A stretch of 63,911 bases of DNA, the filler included, from Collodictyon triciliatum (Eukaryota): NCBI GenBank assembly GCA_043381765.1. It is 7 parts of 7 records of this genome, joined end to end, with 100 filler letters (N's around TTAATTAATTAA, not from the genome) between each part and the next. Parts side by side here need not be neighbours in the genome. Positions count along the whole stretch, not along the records: positions 11,420 to 22,739 come from JBHJMP010002432.1; 6 more parts are not named here. The stretch is one strand, 5' to 3'. Positions 940-36,990 of this stretch are shown here, one piece after another. The notes below the pieces were generated by a model, which saw only the letters and a program-made list of their open reading frames with translations, made no database searches and was not told where the DNA came from. Made by a program: the position numbers and the translations under genes. Numbering within the stretch: the stretch's first letter is position 1; each line of letters opens with the position of its first letter.

Positions 940-3900
940 ATGATGAGTGCCCGAGCCGATCCAACCCGCAAGCCACGTCTCAGCTTCATGCAGGTCTGCC
1001 TTCTGCTGCTTGTCTTTGCCAGCCTGACGAGTCTGCATCTCTTCTACACATACGACCGCTACATGGCTCTCCAGGATCAGCCGCTTTGCGACCCGAGCGC
1101 AGAGGAGGCCGAGATGCATCATCTTGAGTGGCTCAACGAGTTCGGCTCGGTCCACCCGGACTTCTCCTTCATCCGCATTCCGCGGTCCAATGCGGCTCTG
1201 CTTGAGAGGCTTTTCCACCCGTTTGCCTCCTACTCTCTGAGCGACCTTGAGCGCAACATCACACGCGACTCAAACTGCGGCTGGCACCCAAACATCAATC
1301 TCAACGAGTTCTTTGGCCCTTTGCAGAGCCAAAAGAAAGAGCTGCAGCTGCAAGAGGCGCGTCGAAAAGCAGCCGAGCAGATTGCGGTGGAGCAGAAACA
1401 AAAGGATTTGGAGCTGCAAACAAAGCAGGAGCAGGCGTTTCTTACACGTCTGCAAAAGTTTTACCCCAGACGCGAATCATGCGTGTGGCCGTGCGAACGC
1501 CGCAAGGAAACGGTTTTTTCGTTTGAGCCGCACGAAAAGTGTCTGCCGCGAATGGGATGTCTCTACTCGCAGTATGTGCTGGTGATTCCATCCTTTGAGA
1601 AACTGATTCTGCAAAACTATACGGTCGAGGCGCAGTGCGCCACACTTGATGACGGCCGCGTCGTGGCAAAGTGTCTCTTGCCCATCCCCACAGACTGTAT
1701 CGACTACTGCTGGAATGAATGGCACGTTACGCTTTTCGCAGGGATTGCAGACACGCAAGGCTCCGTCACACAGTCACCCAGCGGCTCGCCCACACCCACG
1801 TACATCTCCAGCCCGAGCCCCACCCAAGTCGTCGACCAGGAGCAGAACTCCATCCTCAACTCTCTTCTTAACAGCCTTCTCATGCAGAACGATAGCTCCA
1901 TCAACACCACTCAGATCCAGCTCTCCTTCAACCAGTACCTCATCAAGGCAAACAAGACCGAAAAGCTTCGCCAGGCCGTAAAGGGCCCCGAGGCACTCAG
2001 TCGTCTGGAGAATAAGACACCTGTCAGTCATGGGAAGCATGAAAAGCGCCAGTTGGATGCGCAGGGGGGAGTGGAGGAGGATGCGAAAGGTACAATAATC
2101 GTCCATAGTGTTTTTTTTCTCGACATTTTTTCGATTTTTTCGATTTTTTCGATGAGGGTTTGTCCTAATCTAGAGGACATAGATACTGTGAAATTATATG
2201 TCAACTAACCTTTCATATCATCATCTCTTTTTTCATAACCATCATCGTCAATAAATATGTTTGTAAATATTTGTCATCATTTTTAGAAATAAAAGTATGA
2301 AAGATTCCGCCTACAAAATTAATATAATACACACTCCTTCCTTTTCATAAATCAATATCCCCTCTTATTTTCCTTTTGATGGGTTTGTGATTTGCAGACG
2401 CATTTTGTTTTAGACAAAGAAATCAATTTATACATTAAATTAATACCTATATCAGAATCATGTCTTTATCTTAATATCATCGTTTAGAAGAAGGAAAGCG
2501 CAAATCGAAGCGAGATATGGACGACCCACACAAAAGAAGGAAACGAGATGCTGCTGTGAAACTCTTGATTCAAAACTACTTCAACGGGCCGGAAAAATCG
2601 TCGAGAATCGACAAAAGATCCAAGGACGACCTGGATGCTTTGAAACTATCAAACTTGAGTCTGCCTCTCATCCGACATTATGCAGAGCTGCTCAACGAGT
2701 TGCAATCAAACAGCCCAGCCAAAGCACCGAACAAAGAAGGCGACCTTGTTCCTTCTTCATCGCCATTTCTCAAGGAAAACAACTTCAAGTTTGTTGTGCC
2801 AGACTCTTGGCAATCCAAGGACACCCATTTTTACGACCTCAACCTGATGCCTAGCCGCCCCTTCCGCGTGGCCGAAATCCTCCCACATCACAACAAAGGC
2901 TACATCCAAGTGATTGGCTACTACCTGCCAAACATCGACCGGCCGGACAAATGCAACCAACTCTTTTGTATCTGGGAGCATCCGAACGGATACATCGAGC
3001 ACACAGCCGCAGTCCACGGAGATGTTTCGGTAACCTTCTGCCCAATGCCCAGCGCCAACATTGACGAAAGCTCGCTGGCTCTGCAAGGAATAGCAAAGAA
3101 CGACGATGCGAAGCATTCCAAAAACACACCGCGCGTAATCGACACGAAATCCGGCGTCAACGACCTGATACGGACACACCATCTCCTCCGCTTGACATAC
3201 GACAACGAAATCATCAGCGAGCCATTCCCTTACTACGAAGCCCCAAAGTTTGGCGCGGTGCACCCAAAGGTCTTTATGAGCCTGTGCGTGATAGTGAAAA
3301 AGGAAGGGTTCAATCTGCTGGAGTGGATCGAGTACCACCGCTTGATGGGCTACGACCGGTTTATTCTGTACGACAACAACCCTGTGGACGAGCCGGACCT
3401 TGTGATGGAGAAAATCCTGCAGCTGTACTCGTCCATCATCATCCGCAAGAAGTGGAACCACGTCCACGCACAGACGGAGGCGCTCACCGACTGCATCCGC
3501 CGATACGGCGACACGAGTCAGTGGATGTCGTTCATCGACGTGGACGAGTTTATGGTGCCGTCGCCAAAGTACCGGACCATCCGAAACCTGCTCAAGAAAG
3601 GCGGGCCTCTGTCGAAGCACACGTACCTGCGAAGCTACTGGACCACCTTCGGGCCGTGCGGAAACATGACGAAGCAGCCCGGGCAGCTTGTGATGGAGAT
3701 GTGCCTCAACACCACAAAGTCCACGTCCAACTCGCCAAAGTCCACCTTCATGCCGCACCTGGCCATGTCGATCCAAGGATACGGACCACACTACATTCGC
3801 ATGTGGAAGGAGCAAGGCAGCTTCCCGAGATCCAGAAGCGAGGTCAGCATCGGGTACTTTTCGGTCTACCACTACCGGTACCGCACTTGGGAGGAGTTTG

Positions 3901-4019
3901 TGACGCGCCGCAGAGGCCCCACGGCCGGGCGTGTCCTTGTCTGGGACGATGCGCGCTTCATGGAGGAATGGGCAAAGGGCATCCTCTACAGCCAGCCGCT
4001 CCCCAAGGAGAAGAACCAC
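940..4019 (+). CDS. Glycosyltransferase family 92 (DUF23)-like type II membrane protein; exons 940-2089 and 2488->4019, 3' end lost in N gap
   Basis: N-terminal signal-anchor (QVCLLLLVFASLTSLHLFY). GT..AG intron 2090-2487 joins the two long ORFs in phase 1. C-terminal motifs LLEWIEYHRLMGYDRFILYDN and WMSFIDVDEF (DxD) plus HYRYR are typical of GT92/GT-A. Confidence 0.8.
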
Positions 4020-4993
4020 NNNNNNNNNNNNNNNNNNNNNNNNNNNNNNNNNNNNNNNNNNNNNNNNNNNNNNNNNNNNNNNNNNNNNNNNNNNNNNNNN
4101 NNNNNNNNNNNNNNNNNNNNNNNNNNNNNNNNNNNNNNNNNNNNNNNNNNNNNNNNNNNNNNNNNNNNNNNNNNNNNNNNNNNNNNNNNNNNNNNNNNNN
4201 NNNNNNNNNNNNNNNNNNNNNNNNNNNNNNNNNNNNNNNNNNNNNNNNNNNNNNNNNNNNNNNNNNNNNNNNNNNNNNNNNNNNNNNNNNNNNNNNNNNN
4301 NNNNNNNNNNNNNNNNNNNNNNNNNNNNNNNNNNNNNNNNNNNNNNNNNNNNNNNNNNNNNNNNNNNNNNNNNNNNNNNNNNNNNNNNNNNNNNNNNNNN
4401 NNNNNNNNNNNNNNNNNNNNNNNNNNNNNNNNNNNNNNNNNNNNNNNNNNNNNNNNNNNNNNNNNNNNNNNNNNNNNNNNNNNNNNNNNNNNNNNNNNNN
4501 NNNNNNNNNNNNNNNNNNNNNNNNNNNNNNNNNNNNNNNNNNNNNNNNNNNNNNNNNNNNNNNNNNNNNNNNNNNNNNNNNNNNNNNNNNNNNNNNNNNN
4601 NNNNNNNNNNNNNNNNNNNNNNNNNNNNNNNNNNNNNNNNNNNNNNNTTTCCCCATGTTCACTGCACAGCATCAACCCGGAAGCTACTTTCCTTTCTTTC
4701 CTTCAAACCCTTAATATTTTTTTTTAGCCGATTGTTGCATACACAGCAATAAACCAAATAAAAGAGAGAAAAGAGGGGAAGCAGGTCTTTTTCTACTCAG
4801 CATCTTGGTCTCTAACTATCATCGCCTGACTCTGCCGCCGTCTCTATCCTTTCGTTGATCAGAGTCGAGCTTTCCTTGCAAGAGAAACCCGCCCAGAAAA
4901 CCTCCAAAGCACACACGCACACACTCACTCGCCTTCGAACGAAGACAAAGAAGGGGCCATTAAAGCGCGTCATTAAAAAAAAAAAAATCTGGG

Positions 4994-7900
4994 ATGGCTG
5001 GTTCTGACTCGCAAGAGCGGCTCGAGAAGCAGCTCAAGGACATCGTAGACTCCTTGCAGCATACAAGCATAGAAGGGCGCCATGATTCGACAGTGCAGGA
5101 ATCCTTGAGGAAGCTTGCTCAGTTGATTCCCCTTTGCTCCGGCCACATTGCGGCTGCGCCTCGCATCCCAAGCCTGTTGCTTCTTCACAGTGCGATATGT
5201 CTGCTCCGCTGGCTGGGTGGAGGTGCCTTGAGTAAGGGCAGCTCTATTGTGGCAATCGCTCGCATGCTCAAAGTCCTATTTTCGAGGCTCTCGACAAGCA
5301 GGGTTGACCCCATTGCCAAACATTACGCAGCTATGATTGTGCAAGCGAGCATCCGGCTGTGTCACCCATGGGAGTCCCTTCTAGTCAATCTTAGGCTCCA
5401 GTCGATTGCAGTTTCCTTTAAGGTGATTGATGGACAGAACATTGTCGAGCAGAACGAAGATATGGCACTCGCGGGGCTGTTCTGTGAGTGGTATAGTAAG
5501 AACCAAAAGGAACCGGGATTGTCCTTGTCATATGAATATGGCCTCTTCTTCTCGATCTTGGTGCGCACAAGAGGTTTTCGTGCAGCATCTCTGTACTTGA
5601 CCTCGTTGGGCCAGGAGCACAGAGGTAGTTCTCTTCTCAGCTTCTCTGTTTTGGATGCCCTAGCTTCAATGTTAAAGGGCGATTCCTTTTCAAATACTCA
5701 TACTCATACCCAAATTTCTTCTGGGAAGCACGATGCTATAATGGTATTACTCTTGTTGGTGGCTACCAATCACCTGTGGAGCACTGACCCAAGCTTTCAC
5801 AAAGCCCTCAATTTGCTTGTCCAGGAGTTCAAATCAGACCTTTTGCAATACAAAAATGAATTTCTCAGTGAGAGGGAACTTTTGAATTGGATTTATCAAA
5901 GATCTCCAGCAGACTTTGCCTCGATACCAAGGTTACTAGGCGAAGCATTTTCTTCTTGCTTCGGAGATGGTGGACCATCATCTGTCAATCGCATCATTCA
6001 AGACGGAGACGAAGGGCATACCCCAATTTTTCCCATGATTTATCAAGAATATACAAATATTTTAATTTCAGGCATACTTTCAAAAGATCGGTCATATTGG
6101 GTGCCCATCCGTGGTTCCTTTCAATGCCATCGAAGTAACTCTTCATGTGAACTATGGGAGGCGTGTGAATTCTTTCTGAATGAAGACAAGATGTCTCTTT
6201 TTATTACAGGACCGAGCGGAATAGGTAAAACATCATGTCTAGAGCACGCCTTTAGATTATACTGCATTACTTTCAAAAAAAAGAAGATATTACCGATTCT
6301 ATGCTCTTTCGATCAACTGTTGAAGGTGACGGATATATCAATTTTTGCGACCAACTATTTCAAAATTAGTAGCTCACCTGTGGTGAAAAACTTTGAAGCA
6401 TTTCTCGCTGACTCAGATTTCATGGTTGTGTTCTTTTCTCATGTATTTGATGCAAAACAATATCTGCAGATACCTTTCATACAAGAAAAGCTCTGCCATA
6501 TGCGCACCAAACTGATATTCGCTTCCCATATATTTACCGATGATTATTTGGCAGATAAGGAAAACAGTAGAAACTCGGCTTTAGATTACCAAAGCTATGC
6601 ACTATTCAAAATATTTGACTGGGAAGATAACCAGTTGGAGAAATCATTCATTTATGAGTTCGCAGGGATTGAAGCAAAAACATATTTAGAGTTTTCTGAT
6701 GTCACAAGATTTTTGCATCTACACACAGAATTGACTTCACAAATGCGTCTCCCTTTATTTACCATCCGATTATGGCAAACAATACATACATTTTATAAAT
6801 CACCCTATTCATTTGTGGATGAATACCCTGCAGCAACCAATTCATCCCAGTTTTTTAGTTACTTTGACTTTATTTGTTGGAAGTACAAAAGTATGCACAA
6901 AGGAGTGACAAATCGATGTAAATTAACTACAATTCGCATTCATAAAAAAAAAACAATAATTTAAACGAACACTAGATTTCATCTTTCATCCTGACTAATT
7001 CTTATTTTTAAATGGTTTATCGATAGAAACCAAAAACTCTTTATCTTATGCTTTACTTCTTTCTCTTTTCATTCTTATTTTAACCAACTTTTTTTGTTTT
7101 GCATTCTTAGATTTGCTGGAAAGTAGTTTTCCTAGGAGATATGATACCAAGCAATACGAGTCATTCAAAGATAAACTAAAGGACTTTTCCATAACCTTGA
7201 TTGGAACCAGTATTACTATCAGACATAACATCTCAGAGGCTAAAAAATCCTTTAGAGAACTGAAGATGAAAAAGATCATTCTGCAACTCAATAGGCATCT
7301 TTCCTACATGAATCTCTATGAGCTTTCTAAAACTTTCTCAAGAGACTCTGAAATTACGGATATTCTTTTAAAATTAATTTCGCGTTGTAAGAATGATGAG
7401 AAAATGCATTTTGTCGTGTCCAATTGTATGACTACTCTAAACTATCTTGGATTTCGTTTTCTTAACATGGACATGAGCAATGCTACTCTAAAAAATGTTG
7501 ACCTTAGATGCAGTGTCCTTGAAAACGTCAGTTTTGAGGCTTCGCATCTTGAAAAAATTGATTTTAGCCATTCTCAAATCAAATCATGCAAATTTGACAA
7601 CAGCTCGATGAAGGATGTGCGATTTGGATCTTCAATTCAACGAAGAGATCACCTGGAGCCTATAATTAAGGTTTGTGCTCTGAAAAGAGATGACCATTCT
7701 TCATGGATTATTTCGAGTGGAGAAGACAAATGCTTGAAAATCTATGATGCTACCCAAAATATGAAACTTCTTCGATCCATATCCATGAAATCATCTGTGC
7801 GTGCAGTCATTATTTGGGAAAACAGTGTTCAAAAACAACATTTTCTTTGTGGAATGCATGATGGCAGGCTTGAATTGATTGATTTAGATACTTTCCTTGC

Positions 7901-9941
7901 TATATATTCGATCCAAACCCAACACCGTTGCATCAATACCATCGCACTTTTGCCTAGGGAGAAGGAAGGGGATTGTGCAATCTCTGGAGGAAGCGATGGA
8001 ATTATCAGAATATGGAGCGTAGCTAGTGGTGTATTGATATCTGCTATTGATATAGGAGTGCTATATATTTCTCAAATATGTAGCTTTAGAAATGAAGATA
8101 ACAGAGTGTGCTTGGCGGTGAGTTGTCAAGACACTATCGTTCACATGGTCGATTTTGAAAATGGACACCATCTTGCTCAAATTGAAGGCCAATCGATGAC
8201 AACAAAGAGTCTGTGCTGCGCTCATATACCTGGTTATTCTTGGGCCGTCATCGCTGGGCTGTGGAATAATACTATTGTTGTGTGGCATGCGCGCTCGATT
8301 CAAGAAACGAAATATCTGACTGGGCATCTGGACTTGGTCACTGGATTGGTACCATTTATGGGTAGAGATGGGCTAATGTACTTGGCCTCATGCAGTCGTG
8401 ATAAGTCTATCAGAATTTGGAACCTTGCATCGGGGTCGATAGAGAAAAGTTTTTATACTCAACACTCGGATGTATTGTGTATAGACTATCTTGAAGATAA
8501 TCAAGGAGACTCATTCATTGTATCAGGAGGCACAGATAGAGCTGTTTGTCTGTGGAAAATTTCTGATATATGGGAAGAAAGACAAAGGGATTATGAAAAA
8601 GAAGCCTCGTATATAACTGCATCGACTGTAGTTCATAAAAGCGAAACTAGTGTATTGATTGCATTTGCAGATGAGTTTAAAGGCATCTTTCTTCAAGAAA
8701 TCTCCCTCTCAATGGAATCGGGAAAGGTAGCGAGAGATAGATGTTTGATGAAAAAATCCATCGGCGCACTCGACAAGAAGGTTGTTGGTATTTTAGCTAA
8801 GCCCGGCGGTCAGGAGGCACATTTCTTATATGCTTTGGATGTCGCTGGCAATTTGCACATTTTCAACACAAACCGTAAAGATCAACGAAATTCTAAACAG
8901 GCCAAGTTTACGGGGAGTACCTACTTCATTGTTCCTGGGGAATCGAATGCGGTGTGGGTTGTTGCGACGGATATCCAACACAGAATCACAATTTATGATG
9001 CTGATTCACATGAGATTGTGGAAAGAATTTATGGAAATTCTCACAAAGTAACCGCTGTGTGTGTCCTTGAAACCCCTAGAAGTTCAACCGCGCTTCTCGT
9101 TGGTTCTTATTTGGGAGAAATCACAATATGGGAAAAAGGATGTCGCACACCCTTAGCGCGTTTGTGTGACTCTTACGATGCAATCGTTTATTTGTGTATC
9201 GTATCGCTCCCTACCGGAGACCGTGCCATTGTCGCGCAAAGTTGTGACGATACTATCAGAGTCTGGAGTTTGGATGACTGGTCCGTCAAGTTTAGATACC
9301 AACTATCGATGCTTCTGTACACCCAAGAAGGAAACGTACTTATGATACAAGACAAAGAACATAAGGAAAGAGCAAGTTTAGTGTTCTCATTTACAAACTT
9401 GGGCGATGCTTTTGCATTATTTGGAAGGAATGCTGTATTCCAAGATAGAGATTCTGTTGTTATCGGCTGCTTGCCTCAAGCGCAAATCCATGCCACTTTT
9501 TCCAATGCAAGGGGGTTGGATTGGTTTCAGACAATGACTATTTTCAACAAAGGAGGACTTTGCCGACCAGAAACCATCGATGATGAGTTTTGTAGATACT
9601 GTTTGACCCAATCTCCTTCAATTATGCAAGCGCTTGTAATGTCCCGATTTTTTGGCTCAGCTCGGTGTTTGCCCATGTCAACTTCGAGATGGATTGAGTG
9701 GCTGGGCCGGGCATTTGATATAGAAACGCTGGCTAAACTAGCGAAACTTGGAAACCGCGAGGCTGTGGACAAGATAAAGTTTATAGTCGATCGAAGATTG
9801 CCACCGTTCGATAGCCTTTATCAAAAGGCTGCGCTGGCCTTGGCACAGATATTTAAAAATGGATGGGGCACCGAAGTTAATCCATCACAATCTTTTGCCT
9901 ACTGTGCAAAAGCTATTCGAGGAAACTTGGAGACAGAGTAG
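4994..9941 (+). CDS. NLR-like STAND (NACHT-like) NTPase with pentapeptide repeats, WD40 repeats and a C-terminal SEL1-like repeat; exons 4994-6917 and 7111-9941 (~1584 aa)
   Basis: Walker A FITGPSGIGKT (6209-6232). Phase-1 GT..AG intron 6918-7110 fuses the 656-aa and 942-aa ORFs. Pentapeptide run DMSNA-TLKNV-DLRCS-VLENV-SFEAS-HLEKI-DFSHS-QIKSC-KFDNS. WD40 motifs SGGSDGIIRIWS, GH..ASCSRDKSIRIWN, SGGTDRAVCLWK. LAQIFKNGWGTEVNPSQSFAYCAKA is SEL1-like. Confidence 0.8.
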
Positions 9942-16721: not shown

Positions 16722-16757
<36 letters not shown>

Positions 16758-16969
16758 TACACAACGGGCGATCAAACCCAAGAACAAGAGCCCCAACAAA
16801 GCCTGAGTCAGCGCTGGCGAACCTCCCCCCCCCTTTTATTCCCACCAATAACCGATCACCCAAGACAAGACAAGACGCACGCCGCCACAAAGAGAAAGAG
16901 AGGCGAAGACTCCCGCACAACCACCACCACCACCACCACCGACCCCTCACCGCCCTTCCTCATGGCCAG

Positions 16970-19285
16970 ATGCCTCAGCGCCGCCACACCGCCCTGACCG
17001 CGGGGCTGCTCGCCCTGCTGCTGCTCGCCTGCACCGCCACCACCGCGCTGGTAGCGGCGGCCGAGACCCAGTCGCCAACGCCCTCGCTGACCGAATCGGA
17101 GTCGGAGTCGCAATCCAGATCCAAGTCGGCCACGGAGCCCGTGGAGACGCCGCCGGAGCCCAACACGCGCACCGCCTCCAGAACGCCGCAGCCGCAGCCC
17201 CAGACGCAGACGCAGACGCGGTCGCAGCCGCAGCCGCAGTCGCCGGTGGTGCCGTCCGATGCGCGCAACACGCCGTCGGCCACGGTCTCGCAGGACCCGC
17301 AGAACGTCCGCCGCGACGCCGTCTCGATCCTCGTGGGCGTGGGCATCCACACCTCGGCCTACGGCAGCGTCAACATCACGTGCGCACGCAGCGGCTGCAC
17401 CGACGGCGAGGCGGAGGTCTCGTACGAGTTCCACAACATCCCCGCAGGCAACCACTCCTTCAACATCTACGAGTACGGCAACATCGCCGACGGCGGCGCC
17501 GCCACCGGCCGCTACTACCTGACCGCCCCGCCCCTGCGCGACTGCAACCCCGTCCCCAAGCGCGACTCCCGCGCCGGCGATCTTGGGAACGTCTTCGTCC
17601 CGGAGGGCGCCACCGTCGTCAGAGACACCTTCAAAAAGTACGGTATCTTCCTCTCGGGCGACCGCTCCATCATCGGCCGCGGCATCGGCCTGGACGTGGA
17701 GCCCTGCGACCCCACCTCGGACGGCAAGGACCGCACCAACGTAGTCGTGGGCGGCATCGGCATTGCGCAGCCGCCAGAGGGCTTCCGCTCGTCCGCCTCG
17801 TCCGGCGCAGCCCCGTCGTCCGTCAAGGGCGGCGCATGCACGCTCTCGGCCATCGGCAGCTCGGGCCTGACGGGCTCTGCCGCGTTCCGCCTGGTCGGCG
17901 TGAAGGAAACCCTGGAGCTGACGGTCGACCTGGCCGCCCCGGCCCCGGCCTTCTACTACGCCCAGATCTACACATATGGCGACCTGCGCGACGCAGCCAC
18001 CGGATCCACGCTCGGCCCCGTCAACAACAACAACATTGGCAGCCGTGCAGTCCTCACCCGCGACGAAGCCGCCTCCGCCCCGGGCGCCGAGATCTACAAG
18101 CTGGCAGACAACTACACAAACATCGACCTATCCGGCTCCAAGACCATCGTCGGCCGTGCCCTGGGTATCTACATCTACGATGCTGAGACAAACAAGTTTG
18201 TCATCCGAGCCGCCTGCCCCATCGCACTCTCTGGCCCCGTTCCCGACAGGGTCTGCCAGAACCCCTCCGCCGCAAACTTCAACCAGGCCTCGCCCTGCAT
18301 CATGGCCGCAAAGCTGGCCAGCAAGGACACCACCACCGTCATCGCCATCGAGGACGGCCCTGGCTTCACCGTGCCCCCAGGCTCCCTCAAGGTCGACGAG
18401 CTCTTCATCGAGGTCTACGAGGTCGACCAAGAGTTCGAACCCCCAACCGTGAGTTCTCTCCTCTCCTCTCCTCTCCTCTCCTCTCCTCTCCTCTCCTCTC
18501 ATACATCCTCTCCTCCTCTATGATATGATGACACCACCTTCTCGCTATATGTGCTCTATTGGTTTATTTCCCACCTTTTTCCTCACACAATTACATTTAC
18601 CCAGGTTGGTAAATTCAGTGCCATCGACATCACTTCCAGCATCGACTTCCAGCCCCCAGGTGACCACTTCGTCGCAAACAAGTTGCCCACCGTCTCGTTC
18701 CCCGTGGTGGCCACCAAGGGTTTCGACCTTGTCGGCCTCATCTCCAAGGATGGCGTCGTCTGGGAGCTGCTCCCTGGTCTGAAGTACGACTCGGTCAATG
18801 GCCTCACCGGCTCCGTGCCTCACTTCTCGTACGTGGCATCTGGCCAATCCAAGAAGCAGGAGAAGAAGGATGACAACAACGACGTTGCCATCGGTGTCGG
18901 CGTGGGTGTTGGTGTCGGAGGCGCGGCAATCATCGGAGCTGCCAGTTTCCTCTACTACAAGAGTAATGTTACATTTTGACCTACCTACCTCCCTTCTCTT
19001 TTTATTGAATTTTTTTTATGATCATCATCAACATTATAATTATTTTATTCCTTAACAAAAGAAAGAATGATTCATGGTGTGTGCATACATGTTTTGATTA
19101 TTCCCGCTCTATCTCGGCTATCCAATCATTTCCCGAACGAGCCCGCCCAGTTGTGCGAGCGCAGTCGGTTCATATCCCTGACTGACTGTCCTCTGCCTCA
19201 TATAGAAAACAGGCGAGGAGGCTCCTCCGATGAGGATGCGAGCAGCACGCCCCTCACTCCCCAGGAAAAGTACGGCAACTTGTAG
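16970..19285 (+). CDS. Type I membrane protein with signal peptide, S/T/P/Q-rich linker, two Cu/Zn-SOD-like domains, TM helix and short tail; exons 16970-18448, 18605-18962, 19206-19285
   Basis: Signal peptide ALTAGLLALLLLACTATTALVAA. SOD-fold motifs GNHSFNIYEYGN, RAGDLGNV, LSGDRSIIGRGI (domain 1) and QIYTYGDL, LSGSKTIVGRALGIY..RAACPI (domain 2). TM VAIGVGVGVGVGGAAIIGAASFLYY. Both introns GT-AG and phase-compatible. Tail ends YGNL. Confidence 0.82.
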
Positions 19286-19969
19286 AGAGGGTGTACGGAA
19301 CACTGAGCCAGTGCACAGACCCACCATCCGCCATCCGCCAGCAACAGATCAGCAAGTGCGCAAGGGTAGAACTTAGTTGCACCGATGTCCCTCTCCTTCA
19401 TATTTTATTACCGCACATCGCAGCACATCACCCTCGCCCCACCCGAATCTGTGATGAGACACGATGTGCTGCAATGCAATGTGTCTCAGGAGAAACCCAC
19501 AGCCTGGCCAGTGCCACCGCCTTCGTACCTACCATGCCGTTACATATCCTCCCGTACCTAACCTAGCATTCATTTCGTCCGCTCCCACAACCAACCTTCC
19601 TCACCCCCTCAGACTCTCCTGTCCCCTCCAAAACCTGCCCGTCCTCTCGCACCAACGACGAAGCAACTAAAAACCAACAAGAAATGAAAAGAAACGAAAG
19701 ACAAAGATATCAAGAGATGGAAACCCAAACAAGGTCATTGGCTACACGGCCGATCCACAGCGCGCCCGGAGAGCTGCGAGGCAGGCAGGAGTGGGTTGAA
19801 GGGCCCAAGCGATGTCCCTATCCCGTCGCCTCAGTGTTGTTGCGTAAAAGGCGTGGTATGCGGTCACCTCTGTCTCGCACAACGCAGCTAAAGTCCCTGC
19901 AGTCCTCCTTTGCTCTCGCATAGAGCACGCGCCGTTCTGGCCTCCTCTTCATTTTCCTGAGGGACAATA

Positions 19970-20046
19970 CTGAAAAGACTGAAAAGACTGAAAAGACTGA
20001 AAAGACTGAAAAGACTGAAAAGACTGAAAAGACTGAAAAGACTGAA
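19970..20046. repeat. (TGAAAAGAC)n tandem repeat
   Basis: Directly visible 9-mer tandem array. Confidence 0.95.
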
Positions 20047-22839
20047 ACGATGCATGAGAGGGCATTTGTGAAGCGAAAGGCACAGTTTCTTTTGCACGGC
20101 GCGGCCCTCATGGATAGTACGTGCGTGATTTATATTTGCGTGTGCATTCTTTCCTTCAACCACCAGGGTGATATGCAGAGTTGTCGACAAAGAAGCGAAC
20201 AAGTCGAAGCGCATATGCTTCTGGATTTGTCACGTAGACGTCGGCAGTGGGCCGGCATAATATTCTTTGCGATGGAATCAAATTGTCATGGTTTACATAA
20301 AAAAGAAAAAAAGAAAAGGTTAGTTGAATAAAAAAAGACATAAAATAGGAATATTTCAATATTATGGCACAATTCACCGCAATAGATAAACAGGCGAGTA
20401 AATAAATTGTGCATGAACTTTGGTGTTATTCTACTATTCATTTTTATTATTGGGCCACTAATAGGACAAACCTGGTTTTGTACAAATTTTCTAGTGTATC
20501 CAACCAAGTGTGTTTTCTTGCAAAATCGATAATTCCGACATAAACCTTTGGGTGCTCTTCGATTTTTCAAGCATAGGATTGGGGATAGTAACATGACACA
20601 GGTCAGTAGCCAAATATTTTTTTATTTTAATAAATAAGATTCATAGTAAAACGCACTTTGATAGAATTTTATGAACCAAAAAAGTAGTCTGATTGAATTA
20701 AAACATCGCCCCTTTCATTTATGTGTTACTTATTCAATATTAGAAAAAAAAAGAATCACAAGAAATAGGTAAGTTCTAAATTACCAAAATACCCTTCTTC
20801 TATCATCGTCATAGCACTGGAATGTGTCGATTTCGGACGAATTCGACTCCTACATATATATTTACTTCTATATTATTCTCTGGTGAAGACAAACTCTCGA
20901 ATAATATCATATAGTGCTACATGACCTCTCGGATGATGAATCTTGGCGGTGTTTTTCAAAAATATAATTTTTTTTATGACATCGTGAATAAAAGCAAAAG
21001 ACAGGAGTTGAGTTACCCTGGTTGACATATGGCAATCAAAAGGTTGTAGCCTATGAGCCCCCGAGATGATAGAAAGTTCGTATCTTGTGAAATCTAGTTA
21101 TATCATTAGCATGGTGTCTATCTCCAAGTTTCTTTGAACTTCAGGTGTGGCTCTGGTTTGAGTGAACGCGTTGCGCTCTTATGAAATAAAAATGGGTTTA
21201 TTCCATTCTTCATTCGATGCATTGATAATATATGAAAATATTAATATATTCATACCATCTCAACATAAAATTCACGATCTTCGCGAGAAAATCTAATGGG
21301 AAGTTCCTTTGTAATATCTGAGTCCTTCAAAGTCTGTTGAGATGCTGTGAAAATTGAGGTTAGTCTGGATAAAAATTCGTACTGCATTTAATGCTCAATA
21401 TGGTTTATGATTTTCTGATATAAAATTATTAATCTGATGCTAAGCGTTTTTCCCTTAAAATTCGAGTGGATAAATATTACATAAATTAGTGCATCTCTGC
21501 ACTTCATCGTCATTAAGAGGAACATTAGACCCATGGGACGGACTATATAAAAAAAATACACCCATTGCATTTTCTCCTCGTTGATAATCCACAGTGATAT
21601 TATAAAATCCAATAAAAAAATATTCTAAATGTTATTTTTATCTTACATACCGAAAGGGTGATTGGCGAGGAATTCGAGAGACCCCTTTGATTTCGTACTT
21701 CTTCATTTGTGGGGATGGCTGTGTGACAATAGAAATAAAAAAATATAACATTGAAAGTATAAGCAAAAAAAATAAATAATTGAATCATAAAAAAAAAAAG
21801 TCAAAATACCATAAAACGCTTATCAAATCAACGTACTGTAAAAAAAATTTCTCAAATATTATCTCGGCACGTCTTTCTTCATTTCTTGTTTGTGTTTTTT
21901 TTTCCCTTTAAGATAAAAAAGCAACAAACCGCAATGTTCGCCAAAACAACGAGATACGTTTTTCTCCCATACATCATCATAGAGTGAAGACCCATGTACT
22001 ATTTAGTGGCGTATTGAATGTTTTAAACAGTTTCGCAAACCAAAATATTGCTATGATACTATGGAATAGAAAGGGCTTGGAATTGAGGCATCAGAACATC
22101 ACACAGACTTCATAATGTAAAATTCAATATATAGCAGTTATATCATTCATGAGGCCAATTTTAGAAAGATAATTACTCGTGCAAGGAGTGAACTTTTGTT
22201 ATCATGCAAGTAGTGATAGTAGTCGGGCAAAAGTTCCAGCAAGGCATCTTTTTCTTTTTTATCCTTCGATCAATAATCAAAATATATAGTAAGAGCTAAT
22301 TTTTAAATGAGCTAAAAAACTTTAAAAAGTCGATGTTTTTTTTTTTTTTTTTAAAAATGGAAGATAAAGAAGGACCTATGAAATGGTGAGGTGTGAAGTA
22401 AATGTATTAGACATACAATTGTTTTCAAAATAAATCTTGAATTTTCGCTAACATAGGTAAATCTGCCACCCTTCTTCTCAGAAAAACGTTCTCGTATATC
22501 TATAGAGACAATTTTTTTAATAGAAAAAAACCCATATGTTGCATGCAATAATTCATTTAATTATGGCAAAACCTGGTACCCACTTTGTGATAAAAAAAAG
22601 GCAAGCTCACTGTCATATGCAAAATTGAGAATCTTCAACCTTTATCGTGAGAGAAGGACTTGACATATTCCTCAGTCTCAACACCACAGTCTTCTCTTAG
22701 CTGCCTAAATACTCGCATCGCGTATGATTTAAACTTAAANNNNNNNNNNNNNNNNNNNNNNNNNNNNNNNNNNNNNNNNNNNNTTAATTAATTAANNNNN
22801 NNNNNNNNNNNNNNNNNNNNNNNNNNNNNNNNNNNNNNN

Positions 22840-34436: not shown

Positions 34437-36098
34437 CTACAGAGGGGAAGGCAAGGAGTCGTGGCCAGCTGCTTCGCCAAAGAGGCGCGGCTGCTGTCGG
34501 ATGAGAAACGCGACGGTCTGCGCGCTCAGTCCAATCTCAGTCATTACAGAGTCTGTGTTGTCGCTCATGGGGCGGAGGAGGCTTGGTCCCAGGCAGATGG
34601 CCAGGTTTGCAGGCGTCATTCGGTTCTTTGCGCTGTGTTTGGCCAGGCGGTGGAGAAGCCCAAAGACAACGCAGGCTGTGGCTGTGTGGCTGCGGGGGAG
34701 TTTCTCGAGAAGCCGCTGTGTAGCGTCCATCTGCTCTTTTTCATCCTCCAGTTCTTTCAAGAGAGGGAGAAAAAGAGGAAAAGGGAAAGGAAAGGGAATC
34801 AGTTTTTCTTTGTGTGATGTGATATCATATGATTTAATGCGATGCCATTCAAAGTTGCATAGTTAGTTGCCCAGCATGGCAAGGCAGGTGATTTACCTCC
34901 AGCTTGAAGAAATAAGGTGTATAGGTCGAAGGTGAGAAGAGGGTTGGGCAGTTGGCGTAAATATGACTTCAGGAAGCTGGCGACAAGGAGAGGGTCGGTT
35001 TGAGGAGGAAATGTGGCGCTTCTGTCTATGAACATCATGGTAGAAGAAAAACAAAAAATAGGGAAAAAAAAAAAGAAATATTGCGTAACTAGAGAGTAAG
35101 GGTTGATATTTCTTGGAAGAATTCACCAGGAATCTAGGGTTGAATTATTATAAAAGTAATATCCATAAAATATCTGATTTAAACCGAAGAATGAGACTGT
35201 TTGTTTGAATTAAAAGAAAGGAAAAGAACAACACGCTCATAATGGAATGCATAGTCTATATGATTTTATTTAATTATTTATTTATTGTATATGAGTAATG
35301 TTACTTTCGTCAAATTCTTTCTGCCATACAGACAGTGACGCAACTCCACTTGCAACGCGAAAAATTCCCTCGCTTTCCATTCCTACTTGTCGATAAAAAA
35401 AAAATGCGGATATAAGGGAAACACTAAACACTCGATGAATTGCTTGGGAAAGAAAATATACATTCAAACGCTGCACCAACGTATTTTTAGTTTTATAAAT
35501 GAAATCAAAGAACTTGTTGATATGTGCTGATTAAAAAAAAATTATTTATCATAGGAATAATATTTCTTGCACATAAATGGCTTCAAATTTAAAAACTATT
35601 GATTTCATCTGGGGTTTATCACGCAATACCTTAATAATACACTAATATTTTAATTTGATATTACCATTCTCTTCGATGAAACGGACACATTCTAAAACAA
35701 CGTGGGGAATTGGCTGTGATTCGCTAGTCACATTTTCGATTGCAATCCCAAAAACGGCAAACTCTGGGATAGAAAAGTTTAACAATAGAATTTTATTTAA
35801 TAATTAACATAAAAATTCCTTTTCTTGATTTGATACTATAAATTATTATGCGATGAGTATATTTGAGAAGAGGAAGGAGAAGAAGAAAAAAAGAGAACCT
35901 TTTGATGGAAATATTCGACTTTTTCGGACCTGATATAAAGCATATGAGTTACAATATATGTATAATTCATTTTTAAATTCACAATTAATTCCTATGGAGT
36001 TTGCACTCTAGTGTAGCGATAATATAGTTTTTGATGAACTGTTTATTTTATTTTCGCAAAGTATTGACTGTTCGATGATAATGATGATGATGATGATG

Positions 36099-36195
<97 letters not shown>

Positions 36196-36990
36196 GCACT
36201 CTCGCCATATCTAAGCTTCCTTCGATATCCCTGTATTTTTTCAAATAATTAAATTAATCAGTGATTTATTACGTATAAAAAAAAGAGACATGAAAAGATT
36301 AGGAATCGATATCATTTACTTGATTGTTGCTTCGGGTATTGATATATTACTCGGTTCAATAAAGGTATAAATTTCTTCCAGCTAAAAATTTTGGATGATA
36401 AATACAATATGAGTTCCCTTTACTTTCGTAATTTCATGAAGCCTATAACTGTGTATTATTACAGAAAAAAATAAGTAGCGAAGAAAGACATAAACAGATA
36501 GGCTTTGTTTACCGTTTCGGCATATTTCACTTTGTCCCAGAATTTTCCGCTCACAAATGGCAGAAAGAAACTAATAGAAACCCTCGTCCATACTGAACTC
36601 CTCACAAAGATGAGAGATTTCAAATTTTTCTTATATCTATTTTTTGGACGACAAGTACGATTTACATATGAGAAAAACGAATCTAAAAAAATTAGAATCA
36701 TACAGGTGGCTGAACAGGTATGAAAAAATTACACAAAAGAATCATCATTTTTAGATATAAACGGTATACAAACTTCCGATTCACCACAGAGTATAATTGC
36801 TTCATCCAACCAAAAGCTGGCTTGTTTTCTGCAGTGGCACCAGCACCAAAATAATATACAGAATATGGACGGAGAACAACTCTGTCGAGTTTGTTAATAA
36901 TATACATCATGACACGTCCAGGTTCCATATTTGATGCAGGATAAAGCGAGGCATCAATTGAGACACATGCGTGCCCGATTCTGTCCACAC
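34437..36990 (-). CDS. BCH/CRAL-TRIO plus RhoGAP domains (ARHGAP1/Cdc42GAP-like), multi-exon; 5' end in gap
   Basis: GVDRIGH..YSVYYF..NKPAFGWMKQLYSVVNRK|YKKNLKSLIFV..PFVSGKFWDKVKY (BCH). VFGIAIE..IPHVVLECVRFIEE, GMESEGIFRVASG (arginine finger), VASFLKSYLRQLPNPLL, NRMTPANLAICLGPSLL (RhoGAP). Confidence 0.9.

What the first reader, a model, noticed from the sequence alone, without database searches (positions are those of the whole stretch)
16970..19285. Cell-surface protein built from tandem Cu/Zn-SOD folds that have lost their metal ligands
Seen: both SOD-like domains keep the structural motifs (GDLGN, L.G..SIIGR, terminal ACxI) but replace the histidines. HGFHIHEFGD becomes HSFNIYEYGN and YYAQIYTYGD; RHxGDLGN becomes SRAGDLGN; IGR..VVH becomes IGRGIGLD and VGRALGIY. 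They lie between a signal peptide plus mucin-like stalk and a further ectodomain, a GxGxG-rich TM helix and an acidic tail ending in YGNL. Knowledge: the Cu/Zn histidines are required for dismutase activity, and Yxx-hydrophobic is an endocytic/lysosomal sorting signal. Inference: a pseudo-SOD beta-barrel reused as an adhesion, receptor or cargo-binding module, an architecture I do not recognise.
Basis: partly seen in the sequence, partly recalled or inferred. Interest (0 to 1): 0.7.

Follow-up and report, generated by a model that had tools for sequence, protein, structure and literature searches.

The report
Membrane protein with two dead SOD domains
A protist gene encodes a membrane-anchored surface protein whose outer part is built from two copies of the copper/zinc superoxide dismutase fold that have lost their metal-binding residues, so an antioxidant enzyme has probably been reused here as a non-enzymatic scaffold.

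Summary
Window 16970-19285 (+) is a three-exon gene with GT-AG introns of 156 and 243 nt. It encodes a 638-aa type I membrane protein.

- **Layout:** signal peptide, S/T/P/Q-rich region, SOD-like domain D1, conserved linker, SOD-like domain D2, Cys-loop plus orphan beta-rich domain, Gly-rich TM helix, 27-aa tail ending YGNL.
- **D1:** it passes Pfam Sod_Cu (38.5 bits, cut-off 28.9).
- **D2:** it is recognised only by profile-profile comparison (94-96.5 %) and by the predicted fold.
- **Fold:** both are confident beta-barrels. Z is 18-19 to solved SODs, and 28.7 over both domains to a tethered SOD1 dimer.
- **Metal sites:** D1 keeps 1 of 7 ligand positions (the Asp83 equivalent). D2 keeps none and has deleted the HxGDxGN segment.
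- **Origin:** domain-specific cysteine pairs point to tandem, ligand-intact surface Cu/Zn SODs of other protists.
- **Relatives:** only two were found, a full-length Diphylleia rotans transcript (38 % identity, same layout, same dead sites) and a metagenomic C-terminal fragment. All three end in PLTPQ[ED]KYGN[LI].

It is most likely a non-catalytic pseudo-SOD glycoprotein sorted by a C-terminal YxxΦ signal; its ligand is unknown. Inactive extracellular SOD-like proteins are known in animals, so this is a new variant of a known kind.

The parts
16970..18448 (+). Exon 1 (codons 1-493): signal peptide, low-complexity region, both SOD-like domains, Cys-loop and the start of the third domain
   Evidence: Open frame from the ATG at 16970, with donor CCAACC|GTGAGT. 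The start is supported by alignment to the N-terminus of P0003.
18449..18604 (+). Intron 1 (156 nt, GT..AG), containing a (CTCTC)n pyrimidine repeat at 18456-18515
   Evidence: The junction PPT|VGK is continuous in the relative P0010.
18605..18962 (+). Exon 2: the rest of the third ectodomain, the juxtamembrane K/D-rich segment and the TM helix
   Evidence: It aligns without a gap to P0010 and P0003.
18963..19205 (+). Intron 2 (243 nt, GT..AG, phase 1)
   Evidence: The junction YYK|KN is continuous in P0010 and P0003.
19206..19285 (+). Exon 3: cytosolic tail and TAG stop (19283-19285)
16970..17059 (+). Signal peptide (residues 1-30; hydrophobic core at residues 6-33)
   Evidence: Kyte-Doolittle peak at residues 6-33. 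AF2 predicts a helix at 6-29. The cleavage site after AAA is inferred.
17060..17305 (+). Disordered S/T/P/Q-rich N-terminal region (residues 31-112), with a GCCGCA repeat at 17185-17243
   Evidence: 66 % S+T+P+Q. pLDDT is below 50. Tandem repeat found.
17306..17773 (+). Pseudo-SOD domain D1 (residues 113-268). Ligand positions: H46>N165, H48>Y167, H63>Y182, H71>R190, H80>R201, D83=D204 (kept), H120>D242. Arg143>N257. Cys192/Cys246 are retained.
   Evidence: Pfam Sod_Cu 38.5 bits. HMMER alignment to human SOD1. MAFFT columns. VIA-align Z 18-19, about 143 aa at 2.4 A.
17774..17824 (+). Conserved D1-D2 linker (residues 269-285, ...SGAAPSSV)
   Evidence: 12 of 17 residues identical to Diphylleia, against 38 % overall.
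17825..18232 (+). Pseudo-SOD domain D2 (residues 286-421). H46>Q332, H48>Y334, H63>V351, H71>R359, H120>Y401. The HxGDxGN segment (H80, D83) is deleted. Cys290/Cys416 are retained. The N381-x-T sequon is conserved.
   Evidence: The model is confident there. 6dtk_E aligns over model residues 114-422 with Z 28.7.
18233..18316 (+). Cys-loop, DRVC-x13-C-IMAAKL (residues 422-449). This is the most conserved ectodomain stretch.
   Evidence: 21 of 28 residues identical to Diphylleia. C429 and C443 are invariant.
18317..18850 (+). Orphan beta-rich third ectodomain (residues 450-575; spans intron 1)
   Evidence: No Pfam, PDB-sequence or Atlas match. Not SOD-like by hhalign (probability 0.1 %). The AF2 model of the orthologue is below pLDDT 50 here.
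18884..18958 (+). Transmembrane helix, residues 587-611 (VAIGVGVGVGVGGAAIIGAASFLYY), 62 % identical to Diphylleia
   Evidence: Kyte-Doolittle peak for 19-residue windows starting at 585-593. Sequence and identity.
19250..19282 (+). Conserved tail end PLTPQEKYGNL (residues 628-638). The YxxΦ motif YGNL is at 19271-19282, directly before the stop.
   Evidence: PLTPQ[ED]KYGN[LI] is present in 3 of 3 family members, while the preceding 16 tail residues are 31 % identical.

Best explanation
This is a real, spliced, conserved gene for a type I membrane glycoprotein. Its ectodomain carries two Cu/Zn-SOD beta-barrels that can no longer bind copper or zinc in the canonical way, so it is not a canonical superoxide dismutase (a pseudo-enzyme).

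The two barrels descend from the D1 and D2 domains of the tandem, secreted or anchored Cu/Zn SODs found in several protist lineages. They are predicted to pack against each other like the two subunits of an SOD1 dimer.

Inference: in D1 the lost metals are replaced by side chains. Arg190 (at the Zn ligand His71) lies opposite the retained Asp204. Tyr167, Tyr182, Asn165 and Asp242 fill the former Cu site. This would keep the loop architecture without metal.

The protein is anchored by a Gly-rich helix. It carries a strictly conserved C-terminal YGN[LI], a YxxΦ signal of the type read by the mu subunits of AP-1, AP-2 and AP-3.

Inference: it therefore cycles between the surface and endosomal, lysosomal or phagosomal membranes. 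The rigid pseudo-dimer, together with the conserved linker, the Cys-loop and the orphan third domain, would serve as a binding or scaffold ectodomain. Its ligand is unknown.
For: - **Gene model.** It is in frame, both introns are GT-AG, and it is colinear to the last residue with two relatives.
- **D1.** Pfam Sod_Cu 38.5 bits against a cut-off of 28.9. HMMER hits to 106 distinct PDB SOD sequences at E <= 10, best 2.7e-9.
- **Fold.** AF2 blocks over both barrels are mostly pLDDT 85-98. VIA-align gives Z 18-19 for D1 (about 143 aa, 2.4 A) and Z 28.7 (278 aa, 3.5 A, model 114-422) to the tethered SOD1 dimer 6dtk_E. Foldseek gives E 3.6e-16.
- **D2.** A profile of D2 alone, against profiles of the 18 ligand-intact relatives, gives 93.9-96.5 % probability, E 1.6e-7 to 9.4e-10.
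- **Ligands.** The window protein and both Diphylleia isoforms have no His at any ligand position; only the Asp83 equivalent of D1 remains. At each scored ligand position, 16-18 of the 18 aligned tandem SODs have the canonical residue, except D1 His46 and His48, where 16 of the 17 with a residue do (one row is truncated).
- **Origin.** The Cys pairs typical of the tandem family are kept. The D1 Zn-loop Cys and the Cys after H120 are each present in 13 of 18 relatives. The D2 beta1 Cys is in 12 of 18 and the beta8 Cys in 11 of 18. D1 nests among D1-type domains in the tree (UFboot/aLRT 81/73 and 91/80).
- **Constraint.** All 8 mature-protein cysteines and one N-x-T sequon are invariant in Diphylleia.
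- **Tail.** The tail end is 9 of 11 identical, against 5 of 16 for the rest of the tail.
- **Sorting signal.** YXXΦ is recognised by mu1-mu3 (PMC4114066, passages read).
Against: - No experiment or expression data exist for this organism.
- Localisation and sorting rest on a four-residue motif plus its conservation in only three sequences.
- A YxxΦ that ends at the C-terminus has no residue after Φ. Whether this organism's adaptors read it is unknown.
- The D1-D2 packing is a prediction (pTM 0.66, no PAE seen, 21-row alignment). It may echo SOD1 dimers in AlphaFold's training data.
- The Arg/Asp and Tyr/Asp 'metal replacement' is inferred from alignment columns. I could not inspect model coordinates.
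- The replacement residues in D1 (N, Y, Y, R, D, D/E) are largely conserved between the two species. This could equally mean a new metal or ligand site, so absence of all metal binding is not shown.
- The D2 barrel is only 26 % identical to Diphylleia, which fits a spacer role as well as a binding role.
- The third domain, which could hold the real function, is uncharacterised.
Confidence: 0.55

Rival explanations
1. It is a passive protective coat protein. On this reading it is a heavily glycosylated, protease-resistant type I glycoprotein lining phagosomal or lysosomal membranes, or the cell surface, and works like LAMPs. The SOD barrels are kept only because they are very stable, and there is no specific ligand.
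For: - Short tail with a C-terminal YxxΦ.
- S/T/P/Q-rich region, 66 %.
- A conserved N-x-T sequon.
- The D2 barrel surface is poorly conserved, 26 %.
- From my own knowledge, LAMP-1 and LAMP-2 are type I glycoproteins with short tails ending in YxxΦ.
Against: - The linker (71 %) and the Cys-loop (75 %) are much better conserved than the barrels. That suggests a specific interaction surface.
- No LAMP-domain match in Pfam.
- There are only three N-glycosylation sequons.
Confidence: 0.2
2. It is still a metalloprotein. On this reading the former Cu/Zn site of D1 has been rebuilt with oxygen ligands (Tyr167, Tyr182, Asp242, Asn165, Asp204). It binds another cation such as Fe3+, Mn or Ca2+, for uptake, sensing or a different redox reaction.
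For: - Five of the eight former active-site positions in D1 are identical between the window and Diphylleia (N, Y, Y, R, D), and a sixth is D/E.
- The endocytic-type tail would suit an uptake receptor.
Against: - D1 is 42 % identical overall, so 5 of 8 is not significant.
- The equivalent positions of D2 are not conserved: 1 of 5 identical.
- Arg side chains at two Zn-ligand positions argue for charge replacement of the metal rather than for binding a cation.
- No geometry could be inspected.
Confidence: 0.1
3. It is a partner or chaperone of active surface SODs. Like CCS domain II, the dead barrels would dock onto ligand-intact SOD domains and stabilise, anchor or regulate them. Such domains include tandem surface SODs, or the SOD-ectodomain receptor kinase noted elsewhere in this genome.
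For: - CCS domain II is an SOD-like domain without a Cu site that heterodimerises with SOD1 (PMC13017621, section 5 read).
- Ligand-intact tandem SODs are the closest relatives.
- An earlier, unchecked note (e1-7155665) reports an intact SOD ectodomain in the same genome.
Against: - The predicted intramolecular D1-D2 packing already occupies an SOD1-dimer-like interface.
- There is no Atx1-like or CxC copper-handling domain.
- No interaction was tested.
Confidence: 0.07
4. It is a decaying duplicate (pseudogene) of a tandem SOD gene, with no function.
For: - Very long branches for both domains in the tree: stems of 3.3-3.4 changes per site.
- All catalytic residues are lost.
Against: - The 638-codon frame is intact, with canonical splice sites.
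- The same dead-site layout occurs in an expressed Diphylleia transcript at 38 % identity. All 8 cysteines, the linker, the Cys-loop and the tail motif are conserved.
Confidence: 0.02

Closest known systems
Tandem, ligand-intact surface Cu/Zn SODs of protists. Examples: Thecamonas trahens XP_013762572.1 'superoxide dismutase' (719 aa); Physarum, Ancoracysta and Ancyromonas transcripts; metagenomic proteins of 365-2165 aa.
   Same: - Signal peptide, two or more tandem Sod_Cu domains, and a C-terminal hydrophobic anchor.
- The same domain-specific cysteine pairs: in D1 the Zn-loop Cys with the Cys after H120, in D2 the beta1 Cys with the beta8 Cys.
- They align colinearly over both domains.
   Different: - At each scored ligand position, 16-18 of the 18 examined keep the canonical His or Asp (16 of the 17 with a residue at D1 His46 and His48).
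- None of them aligns to the Cys-loop or third domain, or has the PLTPQxKYGN[LI] tail.
- I found no paper describing this tandem family.
Cu-less CSRPs (Cu-only SOD repeat proteins without Cu sites) of Bombyx mori and tardigrades, and the N-terminal dead repeats of other animal CSRPs
   Same: Extracellular tandem SOD-fold repeats that lack the copper site and are predicted to be inactive but still fold, with unknown function (PMC13017621, sections 8-9 read).
   Different: - CSRPs derive from opisthokont Cu-only SODs, which had already lost the Zn site and loop VII.
- They have 4-12 repeats with linkers of 5-9 residues.
- They keep the conserved intramolecular disulfide.
- They are GPI-anchored or secreted.
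- The protein here has two repeats of Cu/Zn-type ancestry (D1 keeps the GDLGN Zn-loop), different disulfides, an extra domain, a true TM helix and a cytosolic sorting tail.
Oyster dominin (extracellular SOD-like protein without an intact Cu site)
   Same: An extracellular Cu/Zn-SOD-like protein devoid of SOD activity and reused for another role, namely immune recognition of bacteria (PMC13017621, section 9 read).
   Different: As I recall it, dominin is a soluble single-domain plasma protein. It is not a membrane protein with tandem domains. No sequence comparison was made here.
CCS domain II (copper chaperone for SOD1)
   Same: An SOD-fold domain that has lost copper binding and works through protein-protein contact (PMC13017621, section 5 read).
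   Different: - CCS is cytosolic.
- It keeps 3 of 4 Cu histidines and the Zn site in humans.
- It is flanked by Atx1-like and CxC domains.
- None of these features is present here.
LAMP-type lysosomal membrane glycoproteins (functional analogy only)
   Same: Type I topology, a glycosylated luminal part, a single TM helix and a short tail ending in YxxΦ. The tail was read from the sequence. The LAMP features are recalled from knowledge.
   Different: There is no LAMP domain. The tail is 27 aa, against about 11 aa in LAMPs. There is no sequence relationship.

Membership tests
Cu/Zn superoxide dismutase fold family (Pfam PF00080 Sod_Cu) | Match to the Sod_Cu HMM above the gathering score | tested here: met
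   D1 scores 38.5 bits against a cut-off of 28.9, and 37.5 bits as an isolated domain. D2 alone gives no Pfam hit at E <= 10. Its profile matches true-SOD profiles at 93.9-96.5 %.
Cu/Zn superoxide dismutase fold family (Pfam PF00080 Sod_Cu) | Eight-stranded Greek-key beta-barrel | tested here: met
   This is a predicted structure only. AF2 pLDDT is mostly 85-98 in both barrels. VIA-align gives Z 18-19 for D1 and Z 28.7 over residues 114-422 to 6dtk_E.
Active Cu/Zn SOD enzyme | Four Cu-ligand histidines (human SOD1 H46, H48, H63, H120) | tested here: not met
   D1 has N165, Y167, Y182, D242. D2 has Q332, Y334, V351, Y401. That is 0 of 4 in each.
Active Cu/Zn SOD enzyme | Zn site (H63, H71, H80, D83) | tested here: not met
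   D1 has Y182, R190, R201 and D204, so only the Asp is kept. D2 has V351 and R359, and H80 and D83 are deleted.
Active Cu/Zn SOD enzyme | Catalytic Arg143 and the electrostatic loop VII | tested here: not met
   In D1, N257 aligns to Arg143 (Lys in Diphylleia). In D2 the loop is shortened to about 8 residues. R413 lies 3 residues before Cys416 but is not conserved in Diphylleia, so D2 is inconclusive on the Arg.
Active Cu/Zn SOD enzyme | Cys57-Cys146 disulfide | tested here: not met
   D1 has Gly at both positions (G176, G261). D2 has Cys416 at the Cys146 position but no Cys57 equivalent. Other family-specific Cys pairs are present instead. Disulfide pairing itself was not tested.
Protist tandem surface Cu/Zn SODs (unnamed family) | Signal peptide + two or more tandem SOD domains + C-terminal hydrophobic anchor, with D1-type and D2-type cysteine patterns | tested here: met
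   The alignment is colinear. C192/C246 and C290/C416 sit in the family's Cys columns. D1 falls within the D1-dominated clade with moderate support. The placement of D2 is unresolved because of its long branch.
Protist tandem surface Cu/Zn SODs (unnamed family) | Intact metal ligands in the domains | tested here: not met
   at each scored ligand position 16-18 of 18 relatives are canonical (D1 His46 and His48: 16 of the 17 with a residue). The window protein and both Diphylleia isoforms are not.
Animal CSRP / fungal Cu-only SOD | Intact Cu site with loss of the Zn site and loop VII; 4-12 repeats with 5-9-residue linkers (CSRP); conserved disulfide; GPI anchor or secretion | tested here: not met
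   There is no Cu site. There are two repeats joined by about 17 residues. D1 keeps the Zn-loop motif GDLGN. The protein has a TM helix plus a tail. Criteria are taken from PMC13017621, section 8. The E110/D113 signature was not tested.
CCS copper chaperone | Atx1-like domain I and a C-terminal CxC domain III flanking the SOD-like domain | tested here: not met
   There are no such Pfam matches. The protein has a signal peptide and a TM helix.
YxxΦ-sorted type I membrane proteins (functional class) | Cytosolic Y-x-x-bulky-hydrophobic motif that binds an AP mu subunit | not testable with these tools
   The motif YGNL/YGNI is present and conserved in 3 of 3 members. Binding to adaptors and trafficking were not tested.

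The most novel reading that the evidence does not exclude
The former Cu/Zn pocket of D1 has been rebuilt into an oxygen-ligand site (Tyr167, Tyr182, Asp242, Asn165, Asp204, conserved in Diphylleia) that captures a hard cation such as Fe3+. With its C-terminal endocytic YGN[LI] signal, the protein would be a nutrient-metal uptake receptor built on an SOD barrel. That would be an invention analogous to, but independent of, diatom phytotransferrin-type endocytic iron receptors (recalled from knowledge). A less bold version is that it is the first SOD-derived endocytic or phagocytic receptor, with a non-metal ligand.
Probability: 0.08. Interest if true: 0.75.

Novelty: new variant of a known kind. 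Interest (0 to 1): 0.48.

Why it matters
Cu/Zn SOD is one of the best-studied enzyme folds. Its known non-catalytic derivatives (CCS domain II, oyster dominin, Cu-less CSRPs) are all either cytosolic or from opisthokonts.

This gene shows a separate loss of both metal sites in a deep-branching protist lineage. It started from a tandem surface Cu/Zn SOD family that itself seems undescribed. It ended as a transmembrane protein with an added orphan domain and a conserved sorting tail.

If the barrels serve as a receptor or scaffold, this would be a clean case of an enzyme turned into a pseudo-enzyme ectodomain. It would also be a handle on endocytic or phagosomal membrane proteins in a group (relatives of Diphylleia) with almost no cell biology.

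The practical weight is limited. The family has three known sequences, no functional data and no tractable host.

Tried and rejected
- **Word-indexed protein searches.** Exon-1 protein, whole and residues 117-493, returned nothing at E <= 0.001. Only about 8000 candidates sharing most words were scored, so this is weak evidence. The exhaustive HMMER search did find relatives. A profile of the C-terminal part searched among longer proteins returned only P0003.
- **Metagenome contig scan** with alignment A1. 134 pattern matches were found, none confirmed by tblastn.
- **Own genome.** No whole genome is held for this window, so paralogues and other YxxΦ tails in the same organism could not be surveyed.
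- **Third domain.** No match in Pfam at E <= 10. Nothing in PDB sequences by phmmer or profile, best E 0.21-0.57 to unrelated proteins. ESM Atlas features gave a best score of 0.77, below the lead threshold. hhalign against the SOD domains gave probability 0.1 %.
- **AF2 of the full-length Diphylleia orthologue**. pLDDT was below 50 for almost all residues after about 423, and the TM segment was drawn as strands. I therefore ran no fold search on that part.
- **Domain tree**. D2 of the pseudo-SODs sits on a branch of 3.4 + 3.0 changes per site at the midpoint root. Its origin within the D2 type cannot be read from the tree.
- **Upstream in-frame ATG** (about 16583). I considered it as the start and rejected it. 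It would add about 129 residues of translated microsatellite (CACA and CACCAC repeats) ahead of the signal peptide, and the orthologue starts at the signal peptide.
- **Literature**. No paper was found on tandem dead SOD domains in a protist membrane protein.
Full report
**1. What is at the coordinates**

The window is eukaryotic. Its exons are GC-rich (55-60 % GC) and lie in AT-rich DNA (about 30 % GC). Neighbouring open frames match glycosyltransferase 92, WD40, CH-domain, LRR, mitochondrial-carrier and EF-hand phosphatase families.

The finding's span, 16970-19285 (+), is exactly one gene, from the ATG to the TAG:
- The exons are 16970-18448, 18605-18962 and 19206-19285.
- The introns are 156 and 243 nt, both GT...AG.
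- The spliced frame is 1917 nt, or 638 codons.

An in-frame ATG lies about 390 nt upstream. It would only add translated microsatellite (CACA and CACCAC repeats) in front of the signal peptide, and the orthologue starts at the signal peptide.

Both exon junctions are continuous in relatives. The 194-aa metagenomic protein P0010 aligns to residues 445-638 with 142 of 195 columns identical. The 637-aa Diphylleia protein P0003 aligns to residues 14-638 with 249 of 653 columns identical, right up to the last residue.

**2. Architecture**

| Residues | Feature |
|---|---|
| 1-30 | Signal peptide |
| 31-112 | Disordered region, 66 % S+T+P+Q |
| 113-268 | SOD-like domain D1 |
| 269-285 | Linker |
| 286-421 | SOD-like domain D2 |
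| 422-449 | Cys-loop, DRVC-x13-C-IMAAKL |
| 450-575 | Beta-rich region with no recognisable family |
| 576-586 | K/D-rich juxtamembrane stretch |
| 587-611 | Helix VAIGVGVGVGVGGAAIIGAASFLYY |
| 612-638 | 27-residue tail, KKNRRGGSSDEDASSTPLTPQEKYGNL |

**3. Are the two domains SOD folds?**

D1 is an SOD fold by sequence. It scores 38.5 bits against Pfam Sod_Cu, above the gathering cut-off of 28.9. It also matches 106 distinct solved SOD sequences at E <= 10, the best at 2.7e-9.

D2 is not detected by Pfam at E <= 10. Three other lines support it:
- It resembles D1 by BLASTP (E 9e-5, 28 % over 97 residues).
- A profile made only from D2 of the window and the two Diphylleia isoforms matches profiles of ligand-intact SOD domains at 93.9-96.5 % probability (E 1.6e-7 and 9.4e-10).
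- The predicted structure is an SOD barrel, as described next.

I ran AlphaFold2 on the exon-1 protein with a 21-row alignment. The rows were the query, the 2 Diphylleia isoforms and 18 hits that I picked because they have two SOD stretches and 307-543 residues. Both barrels came out at pLDDT mostly 85-98. The mean was 71.8 and pTM 0.66, lowered by the disordered N-terminus and the tail of exon 1.

VIA-align gives Z 18-19 for D1 against many SODs (about 143 residues, 2.4 A). It gives Z 28.7 (278 residues, 3.5 A, model residues 114-422) against 6dtk_E, a single-chain tethered SOD1 dimer. Foldseek ranks the same entry first (E 3.6e-16).

So D2 also superposes on an SOD subunit. The predicted D1-D2 packing resembles the SOD1 dimer. 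This last point is a prediction that could echo the training data.

**4. Metal sites**

I used the HMMER alignment to human SOD1 and the MAFFT columns shared with 18 two-domain relatives.

| SOD1 position | D1 | D2 |
|---|---|---|
| His46 (Cu) | N165 | Q332 |
| His48 (Cu) | Y167 | Y334 |
| His63 (bridging) | Y182 | V351 |
| His71 (Zn) | R190 | R359 |
| His80 (Zn) | R201 | deleted with the HxGDxGN segment |
| Asp83 (Zn) | D204 (kept) | deleted with the HxGDxGN segment |
| His120 (Cu) | D242 | Y401 |
| Arg143 | N257 | inconclusive (see membership test) |
| Cys57, Cys146 | both Gly | Cys416 at the Cys146 position; no Cys57 equivalent |

At each scored ligand position, 16-18 of the 18 relatives carry the canonical residue. 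At D1 His46 and His48 it is 16 of the 17 that have a residue, because one row is truncated.

The Diphylleia orthologue has the same kind of replacements. In D1 they are N, Y, Y, R, Q, D, E. In D2 they are E, F, V, Q, V.

GDLGN is in D1 only, and ACxI is in D2 only.

**5. Where it came from**

The exhaustive HMMER search of 1.84 billion representatives gave 74 hits at E <= 0.001. Only two share more than the SOD domains:
- P0003 (E 1.9e-70; Diphylleia rotans transcriptome, with a second isoform P0077).
- P0010 (a C-terminal fragment).

The next-best hits are proteins with 2-8 SOD stretches. They carry a signal peptide and a hydrophobic C-terminus. They come from Ancoracysta, Physarum, Ancyromonas and Thecamonas (annotated 'superoxide dismutase') and from metagenomes. 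All 9 such sequences that I read in full carry HxH...H...H...HxGDxGN...H motifs.

These tandem proteins have domain-specific cysteines:
- In D1, a Cys two residues after His71 and a Cys about six residues after His120. Each is present in 13 of 18.
- In D2, a beta1 Cys (12 of 18) and the Cys146-position Cys (11 of 18).

The window protein and Diphylleia keep all four: C192, C246, C290 and C416.

I built a tree of 41 individual domains; one truncated D1 was dropped. The pseudo-D1s form a 100/100 clade on a stem of 3.3 changes per site, inside a group of 16 D1s and 2 D2s (support 81/73). The pseudo-D2s sit on an even longer branch and are unresolved.

The simplest history is descent from a two-domain surface Cu/Zn SOD, followed by loss of both metal sites and fast divergence.

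An earlier unchecked note of this scan calls the organism a freshwater protist related to Diphylleia (e1-7201255). My result that the only full-length homologue is from Diphylleia agrees with that, but it does not prove it.

**6. What is conserved**

These are identities to Diphylleia by region:

| Region | Identical |
|---|---|
| Signal peptide | 20 % |
| Low-complexity region | 27 % |
| D1 | 42 % |
| Linker | 71 % |
| D2 | 26 % |
| Cys-loop | 75 % |
| Rest of third domain | 41 % |
| TM helix | 62 % |
| Variable tail | 31 % |
| Last 11 residues | 82 % |

All eight cysteines of the mature protein and the sequon at N381 are invariant. The tail end reads PLTPQEKYGNL (window), PLTPQEKYGNI (P0010) and PLTPQDKYGNI (P0003).

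The selected features are therefore the inter-domain linker, the Cys-loop, the helix and the C-terminal motif. The D2 barrel surface is not among them.

**7. How it most likely works**

Shown:
- It is a conserved gene, and it is expressed in Diphylleia.
- It has type I topology.
- It has two SOD barrels without canonical ligands.

Inferred:
- **No canonical dismutase activity.** All four Cu ligands are gone in both domains. According to the review PMC13017621 (section 5 read), a single His-to-Asp change at one Cu position is enough to abolish Cu binding and activity in human CCS domain II.
- **Metal replaced by side chains in D1.** Arg190 sits at a Zn-ligand position opposite the retained Asp204, and two Tyr, one Asn and one Asp sit at the Cu positions. 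These probably replace the metals with a salt bridge and hydrogen bonds and so keep the Zn-loop (GDLGN) in shape. This is read from alignment columns, not from coordinates.
- **Sorting by the tail.** The terminal YGN[LI] fits YxxΦ, which is read by the mu subunits of AP-1, AP-2 and AP-3 (PMC4114066, passages read). Its strict conservation next to a variable tail argues that it is used. This points to endocytosis and/or delivery to endosomes, lysosomes or phagosomes. From my own knowledge, a YxxΦ at the very C-terminus of a short tail is typical of lysosomal membrane glycoproteins such as LAMP-1.
- **Role of the ectodomain.** It acts as a rigid binding or scaffold module, and its ligand is unknown.

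I put 0.55 on this package. The first two inferences are much more certain than the last two.

**8. Rivals**

- A passive LAMP-like coat protein (0.2).
- A rebuilt oxygen-ligand metal site in D1 (0.1). The replacement residues are largely conserved, but 5 of 8 identical against 42 % domain identity is not significant, and the D2 positions are not conserved.
- A CCS-like partner of active surface SODs (0.07).
- A decaying pseudogene (0.02), contradicted by the intact frame, the conserved cysteines and the expressed orthologue.

**9. Comparison with what is known**

The review by Peterson and Culotta (PMC13017621; abstract and sections 5, 8, 9 read) lists these derivatives of Cu/Zn SOD:
- CCS domain II.
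- Fungal Cu-only SODs.
- Animal CSRPs with 4-12 Cu-only repeats. Some repeats, and all six in Bombyx and tardigrades, lack a Cu site.
- Oyster dominin, an inactive extracellular SOD-like protein acting in immune recognition.

The review treats Cu-only SODs and CSRPs as opisthokont inventions. A term search of its text found no mention of transmembrane forms, and its only 'protist' is Capsaspora.

The protein here shares the principle: extracellular dead SOD barrels in tandem. It differs in several ways:
- **Ancestry.** It is of Cu/Zn type with a Zn-loop remnant, and from non-opisthokont tandem SODs.
- **Disulfides.** It uses different cysteine pairs.
- **Repeat number and linker.** It has two repeats and a longer linker.
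- **Added parts.** It has an orphan domain, a true TM helix and a cytosolic sorting tail.

My literature searches found no description of this layout or of the protist tandem Cu/Zn SOD family. Subscription-only papers are not covered.

**10. Verdict**

The pseudo-SOD part is solid, while the receptor or adhesion role is untested.

This is a new variant of a known kind. It is interesting mainly as an independent enzyme-to-scaffold conversion in a poorly known protist lineage. It is limited by a three-sequence family and the lack of any functional data.

Noticed in passing
Proteins P0004-P0009, P0011-P0018 etc. (hits): This is a widespread family of secreted or anchored proteins with 2-8 tandem, ligand-intact Cu/Zn SOD domains. 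It occurs in Thecamonas, Physarum, Ancoracysta, Ancyromonas and many metagenomic protists. The first and second domains carry their own distinct cysteine pairs. The 2026 SOD review that I read describes tandem SOD repeats only as opisthokont Cu-only CSRPs, so this Cu/Zn-type tandem family may be undescribed.
   Followed up: partly
window 37029 to about 37940: There is a run of N (an assembly gap). It explains the apparent 16.8 % GC of the 36001-38000 block and the six 'open' frames there.
   Followed up: yes
window 19969-20047: A perfect 9-bp tandem repeat (ACTGAAAAG x 8.8, 100 % matches) lies about 700 bp downstream of the gene's stop codon.
   Followed up: no
window 16722-16763 and about 16920-16945: A (CA)n microsatellite and a CACCAC run lie in the presumed 5' UTR, in frame with the CDS. 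They produce a spurious long upstream ORF reading HTHTHT.../HHHHHH.
   Followed up: yes
window 46436-49375 (-): A long single open frame (979 aa) has a calcineurin-like phosphoesterase domain followed by EF-hands, a PPEF-type phosphatase layout.
   Followed up: no
window 2475-4727 (+) and 6999-9941 (+): These are two large single-exon frames. One has a glycosyltransferase family 92 domain. The other has a pentapeptide-repeat stretch followed by WD40 propellers.
   Followed up: no
P0003 and P0077 (Diphylleia rotans isoforms): The two transcript isoforms of the orthologue differ only in roughly the first 50 residues, that is, the signal peptide and the start of the low-complexity region. This suggests alternative first exons or alleles.
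   Followed up: no
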